DNA from: a phage
Length of the DNA: 56,697 nt
Sequence record: PZ513998.1
Reading direction: 5' to 3' (one strand)
Position 1 is the stretch's first letter. Every line of letters starts with the position of its first letter. The notes below the pieces were generated by a model. That model searched no databases. It saw nothing but the letters and a program-made list of their open reading frames with translations, and was not told the DNA's origin. Shown one piece after another: positions 30,148 through 37,908 of this stretch. The translations under genes and the position numbers were made by a program.

Positions 30148-30402
30148 ATGTCCTTTTGGGCTAAAATCAAGGCGATGGCTCTAGGGGTCGTCGCCTTTTT
30201 TGTCCTCCTATTCCTAACGTGGCGTAAAGGAAAACAGGACGGAAAGAACGAGAAAGTTATCGAAGATATTATCGATAACCATATTGAACAAGAACGAGTT
30301 AATGAGGTAAAACAAGATGTCGATTCGGGGATTAATAGCTTACCGGACGGCGGTAGTTCTGATCGTCTTCGCAGTGGTTGGTTGCGTAAAGACCGTAAAT
30401 AA
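30148..30402 (+). CDS. putative lysis-associated membrane protein (holin- or spanin-like)
   Basis: 84 aa; single N-terminal TM helix (AMALGVVAFFVLLFLTW) then charged helical tail; next to putative lysin. Confidence 0.3.
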   Translation: MSFWAKIKAMALGVVAFFVLLFLTWRKGKQDGKNEKVIEDIIDNHIEQERVNEVKQDVDSGINSLPDGGSSDRLRSGWLRKDRK

Positions 30403-31107: not shown

Positions 31108-31422
31108 ATGGCGGGTAGAGATGGAGGTACGGGAGGCGTTCGCATTGACTTGGCGATCAATATCCCGACTATCCTTTCGCTAATAGCAGCGTTGTGTAGC
31201 GGTATAATGTGGGTTAATAACCAGTTTAGCAATGTTAGAAACGATGTTTTGTTGGTCACGGCTGACGTTAGAGTCCTAGAACAACGAACAACGCAAGCCG
31301 AGCGGGAAATCGCCGATATAAAACATAATACCGCACAACAAATAAACCAGTTTCGAGGTGAAGTTCGCGAAGACCTTAGAGACATTAAAACTAGCGTTCA
31401 AAAACTCGCAGATAAAAAATAG
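31108..31422 (+). CDS. membrane-anchored coiled-coil protein (spanin-like)
   Basis: 104 aa; TM helix IPTILSLIAALCSGIMWV followed by heptad-like charged helix. Confidence 0.3.
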   Translation: MAGRDGGTGGVRIDLAINIPTILSLIAALCSGIMWVNNQFSNVRNDVLLVTADVRVLEQRTTQAEREIADIKHNTAQQINQFRGEVREDLRDIKTSVQKLADKK

Positions 31423-33408
31423 ATGGCAGTCAACGCAAGGAACACTTCGCGGGCTGTCGTTTATCAGATCTTGCCTGACTTTAGGGCAAGGTCTACCCAC
31501 CGGAATGTTCTATATCAGGTCTCCGCGAAACTGCGTTTTCGGTCGCAGCACCGAAACGTGGTCTACCAAATACCGCCATTTCGTGCTAGGTCGGTCGTTT
31601 CTAATATAGTATATAGTACCGATTCAACTGCAAGAACGGTAATTACTGTCCCACAAGCGCTAAACCAAGTTGTCTATAACACGTCGTACCAGTTTGAGAT
31701 TTCAAACAATATCATTGGTGGGGTAATAAATACCGCGACCTATTCATGGGTTGAAGCGTTGCCGATCTCTAAACTTGATGTGAAGTCTTTTACGCAACTG
31801 GTGGTCGTTGGTACGGAATACGACACTACGTCCATGAAGTTTATCGGGCAAAACGTCCACCTCGTAAACCAAGGGCTACCGCAACCCCGCCCGGTCGATA
31901 CATGGTCGAACACGGAGATGGGTTCCGAGGTTATGCTCGTTTGTCAGTCTTTGGATATCGAATATATCCCGAGATCCGGGGTTGACTCTCCTAGCGTTGT
32001 ATCGTTGGTTTCCTACTCATCTCCGATAAAATGGGAGACAAGACCGGCTGACGTCGGTACGGTAACACATTTAGCATCGGTTCCGACGGATTTGTTCGGC
32101 CTCCCTAACTCTTTCACATCTTCCGGGAGTGTCGTTCAATTGTCGTCGTACCCGTCCACACCTCCGGCACGAGTAGGGGTTGAAAACGTCCCTCAGATTG
32201 TCAGTTTAGCCTCGATACCGGTAGGCGATGATCCGACCGTCGGAGTGGAGAAATCGTCTCAGGTTTTCACTCAAGCGATTCTGTCATCGGATTATGTATA
32301 TCCGCAATCCGATACTGATGTCGGCCAAGTTTTATTGTCACAAGTTGAGTCGGTCATTGATGAACTACCGATTTCCCCGGAGGACGTTAGTTCCGTTGTG
32401 TCCTTATCGGCGATTGGGGTCGACGCAACATGGAGTTGGTCAGATATATCTTCACCGTCAGTTAATATTTTGGCCGTACAAGATAGCCCGCAACCTCCGC
32501 TAGAGTCGTACTTCGTTTTAAATGCGGTAGGGTCTGCTACGGTGGCGATGTTATTAGAATCGGACTTCGGGCCGGCACACAAAGACAGTTACACCGAAAC
32601 GTATTCCGTACCGATCCTATCGTTGATGACTGCGCCTAAACGGTTTTACCCGCCTCTTGATAACGTGGTAGAACTTGAGAAAGGAAACCATGTTACTCAA
32701 TACGTTACGTCTACTGCGATGAAACGTGACGACGGTATGCCGATATCTACGGAAGATGTCGCCTCACTATCCATTGTTTCCGGGATAAAATCTCCGATGC
32801 CAACTCCGGACGAAGTTGCGAGGAAAGGCGACTTTATTTCGGGCCTATCGCAACACACCATGGTTACGAGTTCGTTCCCGTCTACGGAAGAACCTCAGAG
32901 TTATGTTGAAACGGGTAGTTTAGCTAAAAATATCGCGGTAACGGCATCGTACCCTGATATTCGTCTACCGATGACAGTTGGCCAAACGGACTTAGTAGCA
33001 TTTAATATCGCTAACTCGGTTGACTACCCGCCGGTGAAATCGTTTTTAATGTATGATTTCGCGGGATTAGTAACACAAAATATCGCGTGTAAGGCTAACT
33101 ATTTGCCCGCAAATACGCTAAACTCCTTATCGTTGACGACACAAACTTCGGCTAACGTTGCGTTCTCGGCCAGATACCCTGATAAAAGTACGGTTTATTC
33201 GCGAATTAATTCCGCTCAGGTTTCATCTTCGCTGGCAACGGTAGCTGAGTACCCGGATAAAGACTCAGTTCTTTCAGACATAAAGTCTACGTCCGTGTAT
33301 CAAAATGTTGTGCGCGTCGATTCTTCGTTATATCACATGCCACACCCACCGCAGAGACATCGCGTTAGGATCGTGTGTAAGATGATATATGGATATAAGA
33401 ACCGATAA
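31423..33408 (+). CDS. repeat-containing tail fibre-like structural protein
   Basis: 661 aa; N-terminal repeated RNVxYQ motif and recurring xYPD/YPP motifs; Ser/Thr/Val-rich; sits in tail-fibre position. Confidence 0.4.
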   Translation: MAVNARNTSRAVVYQILPDFRARSTHRNVLYQVSAKLRFRSQHRNVVYQIPPFRARSVVSNIVYSTDSTARTVITVPQALNQVVYNTSYQFEISNNIIGGVINTATYSWVEALPISKLDVKSFTQLVVVGTEYDTTSMKFIGQNVHLVNQGLPQPRPVDTWSNTEMGSEVMLVCQSLDIEYIPRSGVDSPSVVSLVSYSSPIKWETRPADVGTVTHLASVPTDLFGLPNSFTSSGSVVQLSSYPSTPPARVGVENVPQIVSLASIPVGDDPTVGVEKSSQVFTQAILSSDYVYPQSDTDVGQVLLSQVESVIDELPISPEDVSSVVSLSAIGVDATWSWSDISSPSVNILAVQDSPQPPLESYFVLNAVGSATVAMLLESDFGPAHKDSYTETYSVPILSLMTAPKRFYPPLDNVVELEKGNHVTQYVTSTAMKRDDGMPISTEDVASLSIVSGIKSPMPTPDEVARKGDFISGLSQHTMVTSSFPSTEEPQSYVETGSLAKNIAVTASYPDIRLPMTVGQTDLVAFNIANSVDYPPVKSFLMYDFAGLVTQNIACKANYLPANTLNSLSLTTQTSANVAFSARYPDKSTVYSRINSAQVSSSLATVAEYPDKDSVLSDIKSTSVYQNVVRVDSSLYHMPHPPQRHRVRIVCKMIYGYKNR

Positions 33409-34986
33409 ATGTTGACGGGAGGTTATAGCGATGAAAGTTGGTTGCCTGACGATTCTTACGCTCCTAATGGCTCTCTAGACGTATCTAAGATCCCGCTATT
33501 CACGGTAGATAGTCGTGGCTTATTTAATGGCGGTAATACTGGGGCTATGTTGTATACTTTTAGAGCTTCCGGCCTCTATGCTCCCGTATCCGCACCGTGG
33601 TCGCCTAGCTACCCTTTCGGGTATCCGTTCAATAGTCCGAGTATTCGACCGGAGTTATCCCCGAGCGGTTTTTCTATTGTACCTTGCCCGACTAGACCCG
33701 GAAGAAAGCGCTTCATGTTCCCCGGAAAAAAGATGGTCGGTAGACCCCTTACTTCTACAAGTAGCAGTGATAACTGGTCGGGGTCTCCTAACTGCTTCTC
33801 AATTCGCTATCGCATTCCTAGACCGTCGGTATCGGCTCCGGCAGGGCGTCAAACTAGCATATCTTTTGTAGCTAGATTTAATAGACGTACGGATAAGACC
33901 ACTAGACTAGCTTGGTATTTTTCTGTCGGATACCCGTCGATTAAGGTTCGACCGGGATACCAAACTAACTGGAGGAATTATGGGCTATCCAGTTTATGTC
34001 CGGGGTTCTTCGCTAGTTATATAATTTTTGGGAGTTCTAAACGTATAAATCTAGGGTCAGGAACACCGGGAGATACGGAGACTTGCACTTATTCAGATGG
34101 TCTTCCGTGGGTGTGCTTAAGACCTAACAACGAATTAGCTACGGATATACCCAACCCGACGGTACCGGGGAGAGACGGTCATTTTTTCAAATTTGAGTTC
34201 GACCGAGATTACCATATAGAAATTTTGTTGAGGATAAACTCCGCTACAAACAATTATGTAACTCGACCCTCCGTGAAAGTATTCATCGATGGGGAACCCG
34301 TCAGCAGTTGGAACGTTTCTGGAGCCAATGACGAGTTCTGGATTCCGCCCGAGGATACGTCAAATTTAGCTACTTCGGATCGGGTAAACTCAGAGAACTT
34401 TCTTACAGGGTTGCAGTTTAATTTTCAGATGAATCATAAGTACAACGTGTCAGTTTACCCGACGTATCACTATCCGGAGATGGCGGAGGAGTCCGGCCCG
34501 GTATTGATTAGTGATATCGTGGTAGGGGAGTCCAGTGCTTCCGACGGAGAAGTTGTCTTCGGGCCGTCAACTCGCGTATGGGGAGACGCTCCTAACTCGG
34601 ATATCGAGACATCATTCAAACGGCCACAAAGTTTCGATTCTAATGCTAGCGTGGTTGGTGCCCCCATGGGGTCGAATGTTGTTGATGAGGGGGCCGAGTT
34701 ATCCGGTGGGGCTGGAGACCGAGACATGTATAAAACCGATGGTAGTTCTATGCCGGATTTCGCCGGGAATATCTTAGGAGTTCAAGTAAAATCGATAGTT
34801 CGTGCCCCGTCCGCTGACGGCGAGGTCGTATCGCTACTAGGAGAAAGAGAATTGGGGTCTACCGAACTAAAGGCTTCGAATGGCGGGCGCTATTCGTCCG
34901 TAGCTCACACGATTACTTATACAACCCCCACCTCTCCTGAAGAAATATCCAATACTGCTTACGGTATATCAGTGAAAGAGGTATAA
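33409..34986 (+). CDS. putative tail fibre / receptor-binding structural protein
   Basis: 525-aa ORF adjacent to fibre-like genes; no catalytic motif recognised. Confidence 0.35.
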   Translation: MLTGGYSDESWLPDDSYAPNGSLDVSKIPLFTVDSRGLFNGGNTGAMLYTFRASGLYAPVSAPWSPSYPFGYPFNSPSIRPELSPSGFSIVPCPTRPGRKRFMFPGKKMVGRPLTSTSSSDNWSGSPNCFSIRYRIPRPSVSAPAGRQTSISFVARFNRRTDKTTRLAWYFSVGYPSIKVRPGYQTNWRNYGLSSLCPGFFASYIIFGSSKRINLGSGTPGDTETCTYSDGLPWVCLRPNNELATDIPNPTVPGRDGHFFKFEFDRDYHIEILLRINSATNNYVTRPSVKVFIDGEPVSSWNVSGANDEFWIPPEDTSNLATSDRVNSENFLTGLQFNFQMNHKYNVSVYPTYHYPEMAEESGPVLISDIVVGESSASDGEVVFGPSTRVWGDAPNSDIETSFKRPQSFDSNASVVGAPMGSNVVDEGAELSGGAGDRDMYKTDGSSMPDFAGNILGVQVKSIVRAPSADGEVVSLLGERELGSTELKASNGGRYSSVAHTITYTTPTSPEEISNTAYGISVKEV

Positions 34987-36003
34987 ATGTTAAAACATCA
35001 AGACGGTTTCGACCACTACGCAGATATCGGCAAGAAAGGTTCCGTAGTCGAGCCGTACTTAAAAGCAGCCGGGTATGATATCCGAAATGCTACTGACGAT
35101 ACGTTCCAGATTGACCTAGGTCGTCGTGACGGCGCTAAGAGCCTTAAATTTACCGTAGAACGTAACTCCGCAACCAATGCGTCGCTATCATGGGGGTTCA
35201 CTCCGGCCGGAAACTACGCGTGTTTCGGTTTCGCGATGAAAGCCAATGGTTCTCGTATGCGAGTATGTCGGGTTGAGAACTTGGTCGACGTGGAGTGGGA
35301 TAGCGAAGACGGTAAGCTAGAAATTGATGGCCAAAAAGGGGTAAACCCGCTGATCCTTAATGCGTGGTATTTTTTCGAGATAGAACTTGATAAGTCCGCT
35401 AAGAAAGTAACCGTATGGGTTAATAACGAAAAGCAAATCGAGGCGACCCTTACTACTTCTTGGCCTGAAAAACTCGTTCTGGTATGGGGGCAAGTGGGTA
35501 CAGCGCCCAATGCGGGTATCCAGTACCTAGATGATTTTTACGCTATGGACGATTCGGGGTCGGTAAACACTTCCCGCCTAGGGCCGATTGAGGTTGCTAC
35601 CCGCGCTCCTACTTCTGATGTTACGACCGAATGGGAGATCGTTAACGGCACTAACGAAAATCACTACCAAGTTGCCTCCCAACTGGAGCCGGGGAGACCT
35701 AACGCACCGTATTTACAGTCTAACAAGTCGGGAGCTAAAGACATTTTCCGTTCTAATACGATCCTACCGACTAACAACAAGGTTTTCGGCGTGTCGGTGA
35801 TTGCGTATGCCCGTAAAGGGGACTTAGACGACCGCAAACTCGGTATGGTGATCCAGACTGACGGGGGTTCTGAGAAAGAAGTCCAAGTACCGTTGACCGA
35901 AGACTATAAATACTACCAAGTTACCCACGAACAAACTCCGGGTAATACCGACTGGAATAAAGGCGCTGTCGAAGCATTGCAGTTCGGCATCGTGACTCGA
36001 TAG
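34987..36003 (+). CDS. tail-associated protein, paralog 1 of 3
   Basis: 338 aa; shares motifs with the next two ORFs (GFD near N-terminus, WYFFEIEL, RLGPIEVATRAPTSDVTTEW, C-terminal FGIV). Confidence 0.4.
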   Translation: MLKHQDGFDHYADIGKKGSVVEPYLKAAGYDIRNATDDTFQIDLGRRDGAKSLKFTVERNSATNASLSWGFTPAGNYACFGFAMKANGSRMRVCRVENLVDVEWDSEDGKLEIDGQKGVNPLILNAWYFFEIELDKSAKKVTVWVNNEKQIEATLTTSWPEKLVLVWGQVGTAPNAGIQYLDDFYAMDDSGSVNTSRLGPIEVATRAPTSDVTTEWEIVNGTNENHYQVASQLEPGRPNAPYLQSNKSGAKDIFRSNTILPTNNKVFGVSVIAYARKGDLDDRKLGMVIQTDGGSEKEVQVPLTEDYKYYQVTHEQTPGNTDWNKGAVEALQFGIVTR

Positions 36004-36987
36004 ATGATGCAATTTATGGACGGTTTCGACCAGCTAAAAGATATGCCGTCGGATAAGATGGTAAATTTACTCAACAACTCGGGGTACAACGCAGTACCGC
36101 CGATCCGTATTGCGGAGGGACGTAATACAGAAACCCGATGCTTATACCTAGGTGATGTAAACGAGAACGCAGCAAGCCCGGCAACACTGTCTCGACTTTT
36201 TAACTCCGAGACTAACCGTGTGGTTATCGGTTTTGCGTATTGTGCGGACAAAGTGCGGGACGATATTATCCGTATTCCCGGTTTTGGGGTGCTCGCTTGG
36301 AACCGCGACAATGGTAAAGTCTCCTTGGCCGGTGTTACGGGTCAAGCTATCTTGCTCCTAGGTATCTGGTACTATTTCGAGATCGTCATCAACAAAGAAA
36401 CAAATACTTTCCAAGTTTTTATTAATAACGGTGCGGACTTAGCTGGACAACTACCGGATAGTGTTCGTTTCATGACAGACTACAAATGCGAATGGCCGGG
36501 CGGTTCTGGCGGTAAAAAATTAGATGATATCGTTTTTATCGATGCGCAAGCCGGCAAATACGTTGACCGAGTTGGCCCGATTGAAATACTCACCCGAATG
36601 CCGACGGTGGACGTGGTGAGCGAATGGTCGCCATCGAAAGGCGATAACCACTGGTCTCTTGTCAGTAATCGCCCTCCGAAAGAGGACGAATATATTCAGT
36701 CTAACGTCTCCGGCGCGATGGATACTTTCAAAAGTGAAATCCCGCTCGACGCTAAAGGCGACATCTTGGCCGTGAGTGTCACCGCGATCAACCGTAAATC
36801 TGACGTAGATAATAGACAACTCGGGTTGGTGGTTGGCGAGAAAGACAAACAGTTGGAAAAGGTAGATGAAAAACTTACCTTGACTGACAAAATAAGTTAT
36901 GCTGTATTCGAAAATTCTCCGCTCGGCGCTAATTGGGATCGCGATAATATCCCTGAAACTCCGTTCGGTGTAGTTATTAGACCATAA
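36004..36987 (+). CDS. tail-associated protein, paralog 2 of 3
   Basis: 327 aa; WYYFEIVINK, RVGPIEILTRMPTVDVVSEW, FGVV shared with neighbours. Confidence 0.4.
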   Translation: MMQFMDGFDQLKDMPSDKMVNLLNNSGYNAVPPIRIAEGRNTETRCLYLGDVNENAASPATLSRLFNSETNRVVIGFAYCADKVRDDIIRIPGFGVLAWNRDNGKVSLAGVTGQAILLLGIWYYFEIVINKETNTFQVFINNGADLAGQLPDSVRFMTDYKCEWPGGSGGKKLDDIVFIDAQAGKYVDRVGPIEILTRMPTVDVVSEWSPSKGDNHWSLVSNRPPKEDEYIQSNVSGAMDTFKSEIPLDAKGDILAVSVTAINRKSDVDNRQLGLVVGEKDKQLEKVDEKLTLTDKISYAVFENSPLGANWDRDNIPETPFGVVIRP

Positions 36988-37908
36988 ATGTTTTTCTTCG
37001 AGGGGTTCGAACAGTTCGCCTTCGATGGGGATTCCCCGGCTTTCATGCGTAGAGCCGGGTATACCGTTTCGGGGTCTTTCGGCTTCGGCGCAGGACGTAA
37101 GAACGGCGCAAGCGTCCTACTCGGCCGAGGTCGAATATCCCGAGATTTCCCATCTGATACCGGCAATTTTACCGTAGGTTTCGCGTTCAATATGACCACG
37201 AGAGGAAATCTCGTAGGCATCTCAGGCGGGGATAGTACGCTTAAAGTTGGTGTAGACCAGACCACAGGGTTATTACAGTCCGAGGGAGAGTCAGGTTACG
37301 TTATCCCATTGCGTAACAACTGGTACTATCTAGAAGTGGAAGTAAACAAAGACGCAAAGACGGCCGACGTCTATATCAATGGTAAAAAAGACATTACGGT
37401 TTCGATACCAGATGGCGTAGCGACGGCAGACACGCTCACAATAACATTGCGGGACTTCGACGAGTCGGATTTTGCGGACATTCGCTTCGATGACTTGTAT
37501 TATGCCGACACTACGAGAGTCGGGCCTATCACCGTCACTACTCGCGTTCCGACGAAAGACGTATCGAAAGATTGGGGTGTTTCCGGTGGGGAATCTCACC
37601 ATGAGGTCGTAGCTCCCGCACTACCGAACTTAGTTGACCGGTTCATCTATACGGGGACGAATGGTGCTACGGATTCTTTCACCTCGGAAACCGTGCTATC
37701 AGAGGAGACAGAAGTAAAAGGTGTTTCGGTGATAACACTCCTCCGAAAAGCCACCGTAGATCCAGTTAGCGTAGATGTGTTCACAAACGAGCTAGTTAAA
37801 AACGAAGCTACGTTACCTCGTGATTGGGAGTACCGCTACTCAGAACTTGGAGTGCTCCCGGAGCACGTAATACCGGACTCAACTTTCGGAATAACTCTAA
37901 AAGCGTAA
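36988..37908 (+). CDS. tail-associated protein, paralog 3 of 3
   Basis: 306 aa; WYYLEVEVNK, RVGPITVTTRVPTKDVSKDW, FGIT shared with neighbours. Confidence 0.4.
   Translation: MFFFEGFEQFAFDGDSPAFMRRAGYTVSGSFGFGAGRKNGASVLLGRGRISRDFPSDTGNFTVGFAFNMTTRGNLVGISGGDSTLKVGVDQTTGLLQSEGESGYVIPLRNNWYYLEVEVNKDAKTADVYINGKKDITVSIPDGVATADTLTITLRDFDESDFADIRFDDLYYADTTRVGPITVTTRVPTKDVSKDWGVSGGESHHEVVAPALPNLVDRFIYTGTNGATDSFTSETVLSEETEVKGVSVITLLRKATVDPVSVDVFTNELVKNEATLPRDWEYRYSELGVLPEHVIPDSTFGITLKA

What the first reader, a model, noticed from the sequence alone, without database searches (positions are those of the whole stretch)
31423..33408. Repeat-rich fibre-like protein with degenerate N-terminal repeats
The 661-aa product opens with four degenerate copies of a roughly 17-residue unit (RAVVYQILPDFRARSTH / RNVLYQVSAKLRFRSQH / RNVVYQIPPFRARSVV / SNIVYSTD) and later shows recurring xSYPD, VDYPP, ANYLP, ARYPDK, AEYPDK motifs in a Ser/Val/Thr-rich sequence. 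Such internal repeats are typical of fibre shafts or anchoring domains.
Basis: seen in the sequence. Interest (0 to 1): 0.4.

Follow-up and report, generated by a model that had tools for sequence, protein, structure and literature searches.

The report
Repeat-built virion protein of Chi-like phages
This gene encodes a 661-residue phage protein made almost entirely of about 28 short, degenerate repeats. It belongs to an unnamed family that closes the tail-fibre gene block of flagellum-binding Chi-like phages, and it is probably part of their long tail fibre, whose composition is still unresolved.

Summary
The 661-aa product of window 31423-33408 is repeat-built from end to end:
- gapped self-alignment scores 279, against 47±7 for shuffles;
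- four to five ~17-aa N-terminal units (lag 17, z=6.1);
- weaker units of ~22 aa (or 44-50 aa doubles) in the middle (z≈5-6);
- seven exact 25-aa C-terminal units, ..NIAVxAxYPDK.. (lag 25, z=9.5).

The window is Escherichia phage E21 (Lavrentievavirus, Casjensviridae), but it is a concatenation of called genes, each flipped to the + strand. In the native genome the gene is the last of the tail module, six genes after the J-like hub/fibre protein and just before the lysis genes.

Pfam, NCBIfam and PDB sequences give no match. PHROG 7226 (unknown function) matches. Orthologues are YSD1_35, Chi gene 36 and JS26 gp49. JS26 gp49 is a published virion protein (88% peptide coverage) in a set reported as essential.

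AlphaFold2 failed twice (pLDDT 25 and 32), so the fold is unknown. I read it as a structural tail-fibre-apparatus protein with a new repeat type. Its place in the fibre is inferred, not shown.

In passing: RefSeq's 616-aa start for E21 is probably wrong, and the native upstream gene gp44 is a swapped hypervariable cassette.

The parts
31423..33408 (+). Complete ORF, 661 aa plus stop. It equals Escherichia phage E21 NC_052983.1 34854..32869 (minus strand); RefSeq annotates a shorter version as gp43.
   Evidence: 100% identity. The native ATG has a GAGG Shine-Dalgarno sequence 8 nt upstream and lies 3 nt after the gp44 stop. The frame is open and 3rd-codon-position variation dominates in 7 genomes.
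31450..31662 (+). N-terminal array of four units of ~17 aa (residues 10-26, 27-43, 44-59, 60-80). The core (R/S)N(V/I)(V/L)Y is conserved and the linkers vary. A fifth, looser unit (NQVVYN...) follows at residue 81.
   Evidence: Lag 17 has z=6.1. Self-alignment scores 99 against 22±5. N28, Y31, N45, Y48, N61 and Y64 are invariant in homologues of 40-55% identity.
31423..31722 (+). Zone of raised within-genus diversity: the first ~300 nt of the gene, next to the hypervariable gp44 cassette in the native genome.
   Evidence: 49 and 29 variable columns per 150, against 3-23 per 150 (mostly 13-18) in the rest of the gene. Pairwise identity is 80-93% here against 95-98% for the rest. 0.6-0.8 variable codons per codon.
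31663..32748 (+). Middle region (residues 81-442) of weaker units with variable length: ~22 aa, or 44-50 aa doubles. Each unit carries a (L/M)PxS motif followed by a hydrophobic stretch.
   Evidence: The self-alignment chain steps by 44-50 residues. Self-alignment of residues 70-345 scores 77 against 39±7, z=5.5. The nearly invariant Ser at 94, 116, 185, 230 and 442 are spaced by multiples of 22-25 residues.
31936..31986 (+). Conserved island LVCQSLDIEYIPRSGVD (residues 172-188).
   Evidence: The family consensus is LVxQSxDIPYxPxSG. S176 is invariant; P183 and S185 are at least 90% conserved across 48 sequences. The conservation profile peaks here.
32749..33276 (+). C-terminal array of seven tandem 25-aa units (residues 443-618). 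Family consensus: Q-V-a-E-Q-V-A-x-x-A-x-Y-P-D-K-D-x-P-x-S-x-h-x-V-x.
   Evidence: Lag 25 has z=9.5. The unit HMM finds 7 units at E 1e-9 to 1e-11. Most of the 48 family members have five to seven units at 25-residue spacing in the same place. Column profile from 300 distinct units.
33277..33405 (+). Conserved C-terminal tail (residues 619-661): ..VYQNVVRVDSSLYHMPHPPQRHRVRIVCKMIYGYKNR. A Pro-rich and basic linker is followed by an amphipathic terminal strand.
   Evidence: This is the most conserved segment within the close homologues (86% identity in A1) and, with the last repeats, the most conserved across the wider family. Only 1 variable site in 41 codons among 7 Lavrentievavirus genomes.

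Best explanation
The gene is the Lavrentievavirus orthologue of YSD1_35, Chi gene 36 and JS26 gp49. It encodes a late-expressed structural protein of the phage particle that belongs to the tail-fibre apparatus of Chi-like siphophages.

The chain is a string of about 28 degenerate tandem units (about 17, 22 and 25 aa long), and I infer that they stack into an elongated rod or fibre segment. The regular 25-aa YPDK array and the near-invariant C-terminal tail would be the constant part, which builds the rod and joins it to a conserved partner. The N-terminal 17-aa units vary most, both between genera and within the genus, and would be an exposed or partner-specific end.

I infer that this protein, together with the five other products encoded between the J-like hub protein and the lysis genes, forms the long, thin, kinked fibre. 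That fibre was left unresolved in the Chi and YSD1 cryo-EM work. This protein would sit at or near its distal end.

What is shown: the repeats, the family, the synteny, and the virion presence and essentiality of an orthologue.
What is inferred: the fibre location, the oligomeric state, the fold, and which end attaches.
For: Repeats: self-alignment scores 279 against 47±7. Lag 17 gives z=6.1 and lag 25 gives z=9.5. YSD1_35 and JS26 gp49 are even more repetitive, 474 and 495 against ~45.

Family: 50 clusters (50% identity) among 1.84 billion proteins, most of them 630-720 aa long. Most of the 48 aligned members carry five to seven 25-aa units at fixed spacing near the C-terminus.

Synteny: in E21, YSD1, JS26 and Isf-Pm1 the gene is always last in the block. 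The order is J-like protein, DUF2793 fibre protein, 3-4 paralogues, a variable gene, this gene, then the lysis genes.

Homology: tblastn to YSD1 gives E=4e-27. JS26 gp49 aligns to the family profile at probability 100%, E=4e-89, over 666 columns.

Virion presence: JS26 gp49 had 68 unique peptides, 1241 PSMs and 87.9% coverage in purified virions. Its PSMs per residue (~1.8) resemble those of the J-like gp56 (~2.2) (PMC8754663 Table S6).

Essentiality: all virion-detected JS26 proteins were scored essential by Tn-seq (bioRxiv 10.64898/2025.12.19.695335).

Not in solved structures: the J-like protein matches Chi chain 8vjh_A. This family and gp44, gp45 and gp48 match no PDB chain. The C-terminal part of the Chi/YSD1 fibre protein is reported as too flexible to analyse (PMC12264135).

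Distribution: the family's tblastn hits (153 records: Salmonella 92, Proteus 21, Providencia 10, Serratia 6) match the Chi-like enterobacterial subset. The homologous tail-tip proteins also occur in hundreds of Pseudomonas and Vibrio phages.

Fusion: the same repeat follows a discoidin domain and a Gly-rich domain in a 1536-aa protein on a 229-kb contig.

Composition: 35% V/I/L/F/M/Y/W argues against intrinsic disorder.
Against: - No structural evidence: the AlphaFold2 monomer models are unusable, pLDDT 25 with 8 sequences and 32 with 48.
- No match to any tail-fibre HMM or solved fibre.
- Immunogold work attributed the fibre to YSD1_29 alone (as summarised in PMC12264135). One paper supposes the fibre is polymerised from a single protein species (PMC10811340).
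- The conservation pattern (variable N-terminus, constant C-terminus) is the reverse of the usual tail-fibre rule, in which the N-terminus attaches and the C-terminus binds the receptor.
- The proteomic and essentiality data come from an orthologue of only ~25% identity, not from E21.
- It is not shown that E21 or other Lavrentievavirus phages depend on flagella.
Confidence: 0.55

Rival explanations
1. It is a virion protein of the tail tip but not part of the long fibre. It could be a short side fibre, a collar or decoration around the hub, or a protein released or ejected at infection.
For: The virion presence of the orthologue says nothing about location. The fibre has been attributed to YSD1_29. 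The ultra-conserved C-terminal tail would suit docking onto the conserved tail tip.
Against: From my own recollection of the abstract of the Chi cryo-EM paper (Structure 2024; the paper is not held), the Chi tail tip comprises four proteins. No PDB chain matches this family. The gene lies at the far end of the fibre block, not next to the hub genes. A 661-aa all-repeat chain suggests an elongated rather than a compact element.
Confidence: 0.2
2. It is an assembly factor or scaffold for the neighbouring variable protein gp44 (the likely receptor-binding protein). This would be analogous to tail-fibre assembly proteins that stay attached to the fibre tip.
For: It lies immediately downstream of the hypervariable gp44 cassette. 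Its own first ~300 nt share the raised diversity, as chaperone genes next to receptor-binding genes often do.
Against: At 661 aa it is far larger than known Tfa-type chaperones, and it has no Pfam match. The orthologue is abundant in virions at about the level of the J-like protein. Variants of its N-terminus do not follow the gp44 allele types: Pearson r=0.10, and E21 and P2-71 share a gp44 allele but are only 85% identical here.
Confidence: 0.12
3. It is a flexible, largely unstructured tether or linker protein whose repeats only set length or valency.
For: AlphaFold2 gives pLDDT below 50 almost everywhere. Ser, Thr and Pro together make up 28% of the protein.
Against: It is rich in Val, Ile, Leu and Tyr (35% large hydrophobic residues). 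Spacing is strictly position-specific, 25 residues in most family members. Invariant Tyr-Pro and Ser positions point to a defined fold. Monomer AlphaFold2 with shallow alignments commonly fails on intertwined oligomeric fibres (my own knowledge).
Confidence: 0.06
4. The repeats are a chance or compositional effect in an otherwise ordinary or spurious ORF.
For: The middle region has no significant ungapped lag. No repeat is detectable at the DNA level.
Against: All shuffle controls are exceeded by a wide margin. The repeats and the frame are conserved in homologues down to ~20% identity. Variation is dominated by the third codon position.
Confidence: 0.01

Closest known systems
YSD1_35 (Salmonella phage YSD1), gene 36 of phage Chi, and gp49 of Serratia phage JS26. 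All are annotated 'hypothetical protein'; the original RAST annotation called JS26 gp49 a 'putative capsid protein'.
   Same: Same family: tblastn E=4e-27 and 2e-26, and hhalign probability 100%. Same length class (707-709 aa), same position as last gene of the tail module before the lysis genes, and the same architecture of N-terminal short repeats, PxS units, six to seven 25-aa YPDK units and a conserved tail.
   Different: Only 25-28% identical. The N-terminal repeats have unrelated sequences: xVGEAL units in YSD1, ~38-aa units in JS26, RNVVYQ units here. The E21 protein ends with five extra residues after the ..IY terminus.
T4 long tail fibre (gp34-gp35-gp36-gp37): a fibre built end to end from several gene products encoded in order
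   Same: This is an analogy from my own knowledge. Both have a block of consecutive late genes after the hub or baseplate genes, repeat-rich chains, and a kinked fibre (Chi-like fibres are described as 'single, kinked'; PMC6631126). The E21 block has about 2,900 residues: roughly 490 C-terminal residues of gp49 plus gp48 to gp43. The T4 fibre is about 145 nm and also about 2,900 residues (my recollection).
   Different: There is no sequence similarity to T4 fibre proteins. A hetero-oligomeric make-up of the Chi-type fibre is my inference and has not been shown.
Triple beta-spiral shaft repeats of the adenovirus fibre and reovirus sigma1
   Same: Both have short (15-17 aa) pseudo-repeats with alternating hydrophobic residues followed by a Pro/Gly turn. 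Here the unit R-N-V-V-Y-Q-I-P-P-F-R-A-R has hydrophobic residues at positions 3, 5 and 7, then PP, then positions 10 and 12. The resemblance rests on the motif as I remember it.
   Different: The register of the Pro turn differs from the remembered consensus. No sequence match to PDB. There is no usable model to compare. Most of the protein uses 22-25-aa units, which do not fit that motif.
Tail-fibre assembly proteins (Tfa, T4 gp38 type) encoded just downstream of receptor-binding genes
   Same: It lies directly downstream of the most variable gene of the module, and shares raised diversity at the junction.
   Different: It is three to four times larger, all-repeat, has no Pfam match, and its orthologue is abundant in virions.

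Membership tests
PHROG 7226 (unknown function) | Full-length match to the family profile | tested here: met
   E=2.4e-259, residues 2-656 against profile positions 5-667 of 667.
YSD1_35 / Chi gene 36 / JS26 gp49 orthologous group | Significant collinear sequence similarity | tested here: met
   tblastn to YSD1 and Chi gives E=4e-27 and 2e-26 over residues 155-656. BLASTP to JS26 gp49 gives E=2e-12. JS26 gp49 against the family profile gives probability 100%, E=4e-89.
YSD1_35 / Chi gene 36 / JS26 gp49 orthologous group | Conserved position: last gene of the tail module, six genes after the J-like protein and directly before the lysis genes | tested here: met
   Annotated regions of E21, ASh-2020a, YSD1, JS26, Isf-Pm1, P2-71 and Jing313. 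The position holds in the native genome, not in the window.
Phage virion structural protein | Detected in purified particles | not testable with these tools
   Shown only for the orthologue JS26 gp49: 68 unique peptides, 87.9% coverage (PMC8754663 Table S6). No proteomic data were found for E21 or other Lavrentievavirus phages.
Phage tail fibre / fibrous shaft protein | Match to a described tail-fibre family or repeat (Pfam, NCBIfam, or PHROGs annotated 'tail fiber') | tested here: not met
   No Pfam or NCBIfam hit for the protein or for any of 48 family members. The only PHROG hit is of unknown function.
Phage tail fibre / fibrous shaft protein | Elongated oligomeric (usually trimeric) fold | tested here: inconclusive
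   AlphaFold2 monomer predictions gave pLDDT 25.3 and 32.3 and pTM 0.16-0.19. No multimer prediction was available. No PDB sequence match.
Phage tail fibre / fibrous shaft protein | Significant internal periodicity | tested here: met
Triple beta-spiral repeat (adenovirus / reovirus shaft) | 15-16-residue repeat with the canonical hydrophobic and Gly/Pro register, forming a trimeric spiral | tested here: inconclusive
   Only the four N-terminal 17-aa units loosely resemble the remembered motif. No similarity to solved chains and no usable model.
Known solenoid or beta-repeat families (LRR, Rhs/YD, pentapeptide, parallel beta-helix) | Match to the corresponding Pfam repeat models | tested here: not met
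   No Pfam match at E<=0.1.
Tail-fibre assembly chaperone (Tfa type) | Small (~150-250 aa) protein with a Tfa/Caudo_TAP-type domain | tested here: not met
   661 aa, with no Pfam match at E<=0.1 and so none to the Caudo_TAP/Tfa-type models either. The orthologue is abundant in virions.

The most novel reading that the evidence does not exclude
The long flagellum-wrapping fibre of Chi-like phages is not made of the J-like protein (YSD1_29) alone. It is a hetero-oligomeric chain of the six downstream gene products. This all-repeat protein forms its distal rod using a fibrous repeat fold not yet described: the 25-residue Y-P-D-K-D..P-x-S unit. Its variable N-terminal 17-aa units are exposed to the host surface or to the swapped gp44 adhesin.
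Probability: 0.25. Interest if true: 0.65.

Novelty: new variant of a known kind. Interest (0 to 1): 0.42.

Why it matters
Chi-like phages are the textbook flagellum-riding phages. Even so, the make-up and structure of their ~200-nm fibre remain unresolved. Cryo-EM of Chi and YSD1 left the fibre unresolved, and six virion proteins encoded after the hub protein have no assigned place.

This analysis gives one of them a concrete and testable description: a highly conserved, all-repeat, probably rod-forming protein with a constant C-terminal array and a variable N-terminal end. It also points to the neighbouring gp44 as the exchangeable specificity cassette in Proteus phages. That is relevant to host-range engineering of therapeutic Proteus and Salmonella phages.

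The 25-aa repeat matches no described family, so it may represent a new fibrous fold. If instead the protein turns out to be an ordinary accessory tail protein, the finding is a useful annotation and nothing more.

Tried and rejected
- **DNA-level repeats.** TRF and the seed-based repeat search found nothing relevant.
- **Family libraries.** Pfam (single protein, all 48 members, and odd-length members) and NCBIfam gave no family. PHROGs gave only an unknown-function family.
- **Solved structures.** A PDB sequence search with the family profile found nothing at E<=1.
- **Structure prediction.** AlphaFold2 with 8 and then 48 sequences gave pLDDT 25 and 32. I therefore ran no fold searches, since the matches would be meaningless.
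- **Secondary structure of the 25-aa unit.** A hydrophobic-moment test gave a helical periodicity of 0.90 (permutation p=0.12) and a strand periodicity with p=0.52. This is not significant and I make no claim from it.
- **Co-evolution with gp44.** I considered that the variable N-terminal repeats co-evolve with the gp44 allele. This was rejected: r=0.10.
- **Shared repeats with neighbours.** Profile comparison with gp44 and with the C-terminal half of the J-like protein found no relationship.
- **IMG/VR scan.** It returned only the three known genomes.
- **Literature.** Searches for YSD1_35 and CHI_32-37 found nothing on this protein. The YSD1 fibre paper (Mol Microbiol 2019) and the Chi cryo-EM paper (Structure 2024) are not held. 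No paper was found showing flagellum dependence of Lavrentievavirus.
- **C-terminus as an outer-membrane beta-signal.** Rejected, because the E21 protein continues five residues past the aromatic end.
Full report
**1. What the window is**

The target matches Escherichia phage E21 (NC_052983.1; Casjensviridae, Lavrentievavirus) at 100%. It matches 26 further phage records, mostly Proteus phages, at 93-96% nucleotide identity.

A blastn of the whole window against the E21 record shows that the window is not native DNA. It is a concatenation of called genes in record order, each turned to the + strand, with most intergenic DNA removed.

In the native genome the tail block is transcribed in the opposite order to the window:
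- tape measure protein, then gp53, gp52, gp51/50;
- gp49, the 1259-aa J-like protein;
- gp48, a DUF2793 'tail fiber protein';
- gp47, gp46 and gp45, three paralogues of PHROG 2448;
- gp44;
- gp43, the target;
- the lysis genes gp42, gp41 and gp40.

So the target's true upstream neighbour is gp44 (window 33409-34986), and its true downstream neighbour is the lysis cassette.

**2. The observation**

The 661-aa ORF is present. They are significant:
- residues 1-75 self-align at 99, against 22±5 for shuffles (maximum 45 in 500);
- lag 17 gives z=6.1, where the 99th percentile of the best z in shuffles is 3.6.

They belong to seven 25-aa units at residues 443-618. A unit HMM recovers these at E of 1e-9 to 1e-11, and lag 25 gives z=9.5.

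The whole protein self-aligns with a shift of one unit, from residue 5 to residue 660. The score is 279 against 47±7. The middle region alone is weaker but still beats all shuffles, with z about 5-6. Its units vary in length, so no single ungapped lag is significant there.

There is no repeat in the DNA. The duplications are therefore ancient.

In total the protein has roughly 28 units, in three zones of about 17, 22 and 25 residues.

**3. Is the 5' part coding?**

RefSeq annotates E21 gp43 as 616 aa from a GTG at codon 46. Jing313 is annotated the same way. ASh-2020a, Isf-Pm1, P2-71 and PM87 are annotated as 661 aa.

Three lines support the 661-aa product:
- The native ATG lies 3 nt after the gp44 stop and has GAGG 8 nt upstream. 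The GTG has no such site.
- Homologues of 40-55% identity conserve the N-x-V-Y cores (N28, Y31, N45, Y48, N61, Y64), and some start at the same Met-Ala.
- In seven genomes the frame stays open. In codons 1-45, variation is mostly at the third codon position (29 of 50 variable sites), and 21 of 36 variable codons are synonymous.

The E21 RefSeq start is probably wrong.

**4. The family**

Pfam and NCBIfam give nothing. PHROG 7226 (unknown function) matches over the full length.

The word-indexed search found 7 relatives. A profile search of 1.84 billion representatives found 50 clusters, most of them 630-720 aa long. Every source name is 'hypothetical protein'.

In a 48-sequence alignment the best-conserved columns are a recurring Ser (94, 116, 185, 230, 442, 493, 593, 618), a few Pro, Tyr and Gly, and the C-terminal tail. 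The consensus tail is SLYxxPxPPxRHRxxIxCxxVY.

Most members carry five to seven units at 25-residue spacing in the same C-terminal position. The consensus from 300 distinct units is Q-V-a-E-Q-V-A-x-x-A-x-Y-P-D-K-D-x-P-x-S-x-h-x-V-x, with Tyr at 76%, Pro at 73% and Ser at 61%.

Conservation rises towards the C-terminus. The N-terminal repeats are lineage-specific: xVGEAL units in YSD1_35 and ~38-aa units in JS26 gp49. Both of those proteins are even more self-similar, 474 and 495 against ~45.

**5. Orthologues and context**

tblastn finds the family in 153 phage records (Salmonella 92, Proteus 21, Providencia 10, Escherichia 8, Serratia 6, and others), including YSD1 (YSD1_35) and Chi (gene 36).

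Synteny with YSD1 and JS26 is exact. E21 gp49 corresponds to YSD1_29, and it matches Chi chain 8vjh_A in the PDB.

The tail-tip proteins (gp53 and the C-terminal half of gp49) also occur in hundreds of Pseudomonas, Vibrio and other phages. The target family tracks only the Chi-like enterobacterial subset.

**6. External experimental evidence**

JS26 is a flagellum-dependent Casjensviridae phage (PMC8754663). Its gp49 aligns to the family profile with probability 100%.

It was found in purified virions with 68 unique peptides, 1241 PSMs and 87.9% coverage. Its PSM density is close to that of the J-like gp56 and the distal tail protein gp60 (Table S6). I read this, roughly, as a few copies per particle.

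A Tn-seq preprint reports that every JS26 protein detected in virions is essential (10.64898/2025.12.19.695335).

For YSD1 and Chi, the fibre was assigned to YSD1_29 by immunogold. The C-terminal region of that protein was too flexible to analyse (PMC12264135).

No PDB chain matches the target family, gp44, gp45 or gp48. These abundant virion proteins therefore have no place in the published structures. The unresolved fibre is the obvious candidate, but this is inference.

By my own rough reckoning, the ~500 C-terminal residues of the J-like protein are too few for a ~200-nm fibre. The whole block (~2,900 residues) is comparable to the T4 long tail fibre.

**7. Structure**

AlphaFold2 failed with both alignments, giving pLDDT 25.3 and 32.3. 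I therefore ran no fold search.

The composition (35% large hydrophobic residues, 25% beta-branched) and the strict unit spacing argue for an ordered structure. Monomer predictions with shallow alignments often fail on intertwined oligomeric fibres (my own knowledge).

A hydrophobic-moment test on the 25-aa unit could not tell helix from strand (p=0.12 and p=0.52).

**8. Variation within the genus**

In a five-genome alignment of the module, gp44 is hypervariable along its whole length: 49-100 variable columns per 150, against 0-21 elsewhere in the module.

gp44 has three allele types, 57-70% identical to each other, in genomes otherwise 96-99% identical. It is thus the exchangeable cassette and the likely specificity determinant.

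The raised diversity continues through the first ~300 nt of the target, which is the N-terminal repeat zone. Identity there is 80-93%, against 95-98% for the rest of the gene. Within the units the N-x-V-Y cores stay fixed and the linkers change.

These variants do not follow the gp44 alleles (r=0.10). A simple co-evolving interface is therefore not supported.

The last 41 codons are almost invariant even at synonymous sites. This is part of a low-diversity stretch that continues into the lysis genes.

**9. A portable repeat**

A weak family hit (P0052, 1536 aa) sits on a 229-kb metagenomic contig. It carries clear Y-x-D-P..P-A/Q-S 25-aa units downstream of an F5/8 type C (discoidin) domain and a Gly-rich domain. 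A 751-aa gene, the same length as the weak family hit P0055, lies two genes downstream.

This fits a role in surface-exposed, adhesin-type phage structures.

**10. Verdict**

The repeats are real, ancient and conserved. The protein is a genuine late structural protein of the tail-fibre block of Chi-like phages.

I think it most likely forms an elongated segment of the fibre apparatus (confidence about 0.55). Rivals are a non-fibre tail accessory (0.2), a carried assembly factor for gp44 (0.12) and a flexible tether (0.06).

It belongs to an unnamed family with a repeat type that no library describes. I rate it a new variant of a known kind (phage fibrous repeat proteins), of moderate interest.

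Noticed in passing
whole window 1-56697: The window is not native sequence. It is phage E21's called genes concatenated in record order, each flipped to the + strand, with most intergenic DNA removed. ORFs abut exactly (for example 31108-31422 | 31423-33408 | 33409-34986). Gene order in the tail block is the reverse of transcription order.
   Followed up: yes
window 33409-34986 (gp44; native upstream neighbour of the target): gp44 is a hypervariable, swapped cassette within Lavrentievavirus. It has 49-100 variable columns per 150 across the whole gene, against 0-21 elsewhere in the tail module. Three allele types are 57-70% identical in genomes otherwise 96-99% identical. It is the likely host-specificity determinant. 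It has no Pfam or PDB match, and the window's gene call (525 aa) is shorter than RefSeq's (546 aa).
   Followed up: partly
window 31423-31557 (codons 1-45 of the target): RefSeq E21 (and Jing313) annotate the gene from a GTG at codon 46 (616 aa). The Shine-Dalgarno site, conservation in distant homologues and the codon-position pattern all support the upstream ATG (661 aa).
   Followed up: yes
window 33283-33405 (last 41 codons of the target) and on into the lysis genes in the native genome: There is only one variable site in 41 codons among seven genomes, where about 13 variable codons would be expected. Synonymous sites are conserved too. Low diversity continues into the downstream lysis genes. 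Some records annotate the next gene as starting 20 nt inside this 3' end. The cause is unknown (a recent sweep, an overlapping signal, or an RNA element).
   Followed up: partly
window 34987-36003, 36004-36987, 36988-37908 (gp45, gp46, gp47): Three consecutive paralogues (PHROG 2448, unknown function). One has a weak Laminin_G_3 / concanavalin-A-like lectin hit (E=0.0017). Their JS26 counterparts gave the highest PSM densities of the fibre block in virions.
   Followed up: no
phage records matching window 31423-33408: Near-identical genomes (93-100% identity) are deposited with hosts as different as Proteus mirabilis, Salmonella, enterotoxigenic E. coli, Enterococcus durans, Pseudomonas aeruginosa and Staphylococcus. 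This suggests mislabelled hosts or carry-over of Proteus phages.
   Followed up: no
L018 10001-14611 (P0052, 229-kb metagenomic contig from mine tailings): A 1536-aa protein carries the same 25-aa Y-P-D..P-x-S repeats after a discoidin (F5/8 type C) domain and a Gly-rich domain. It lies in a block of large unannotated genes on a jumbo-sized, probably viral contig. A 751-aa gene, the same length as the weak family hit P0055, lies two genes downstream.
   Followed up: partly
window 31108-31422 and 30148-30402 (gp42, gp40): Both are annotated 'Rz-like spanin' in RefSeq. Other records of the same genes call them 'lysis protein B', 'i-spanin' or 'endolysin-type protein'. gp42 has an N-terminal hydrophobic segment followed by a coiled-coil-like stretch. 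The lysis cassette annotation is inconsistent across records.
   Followed up: no
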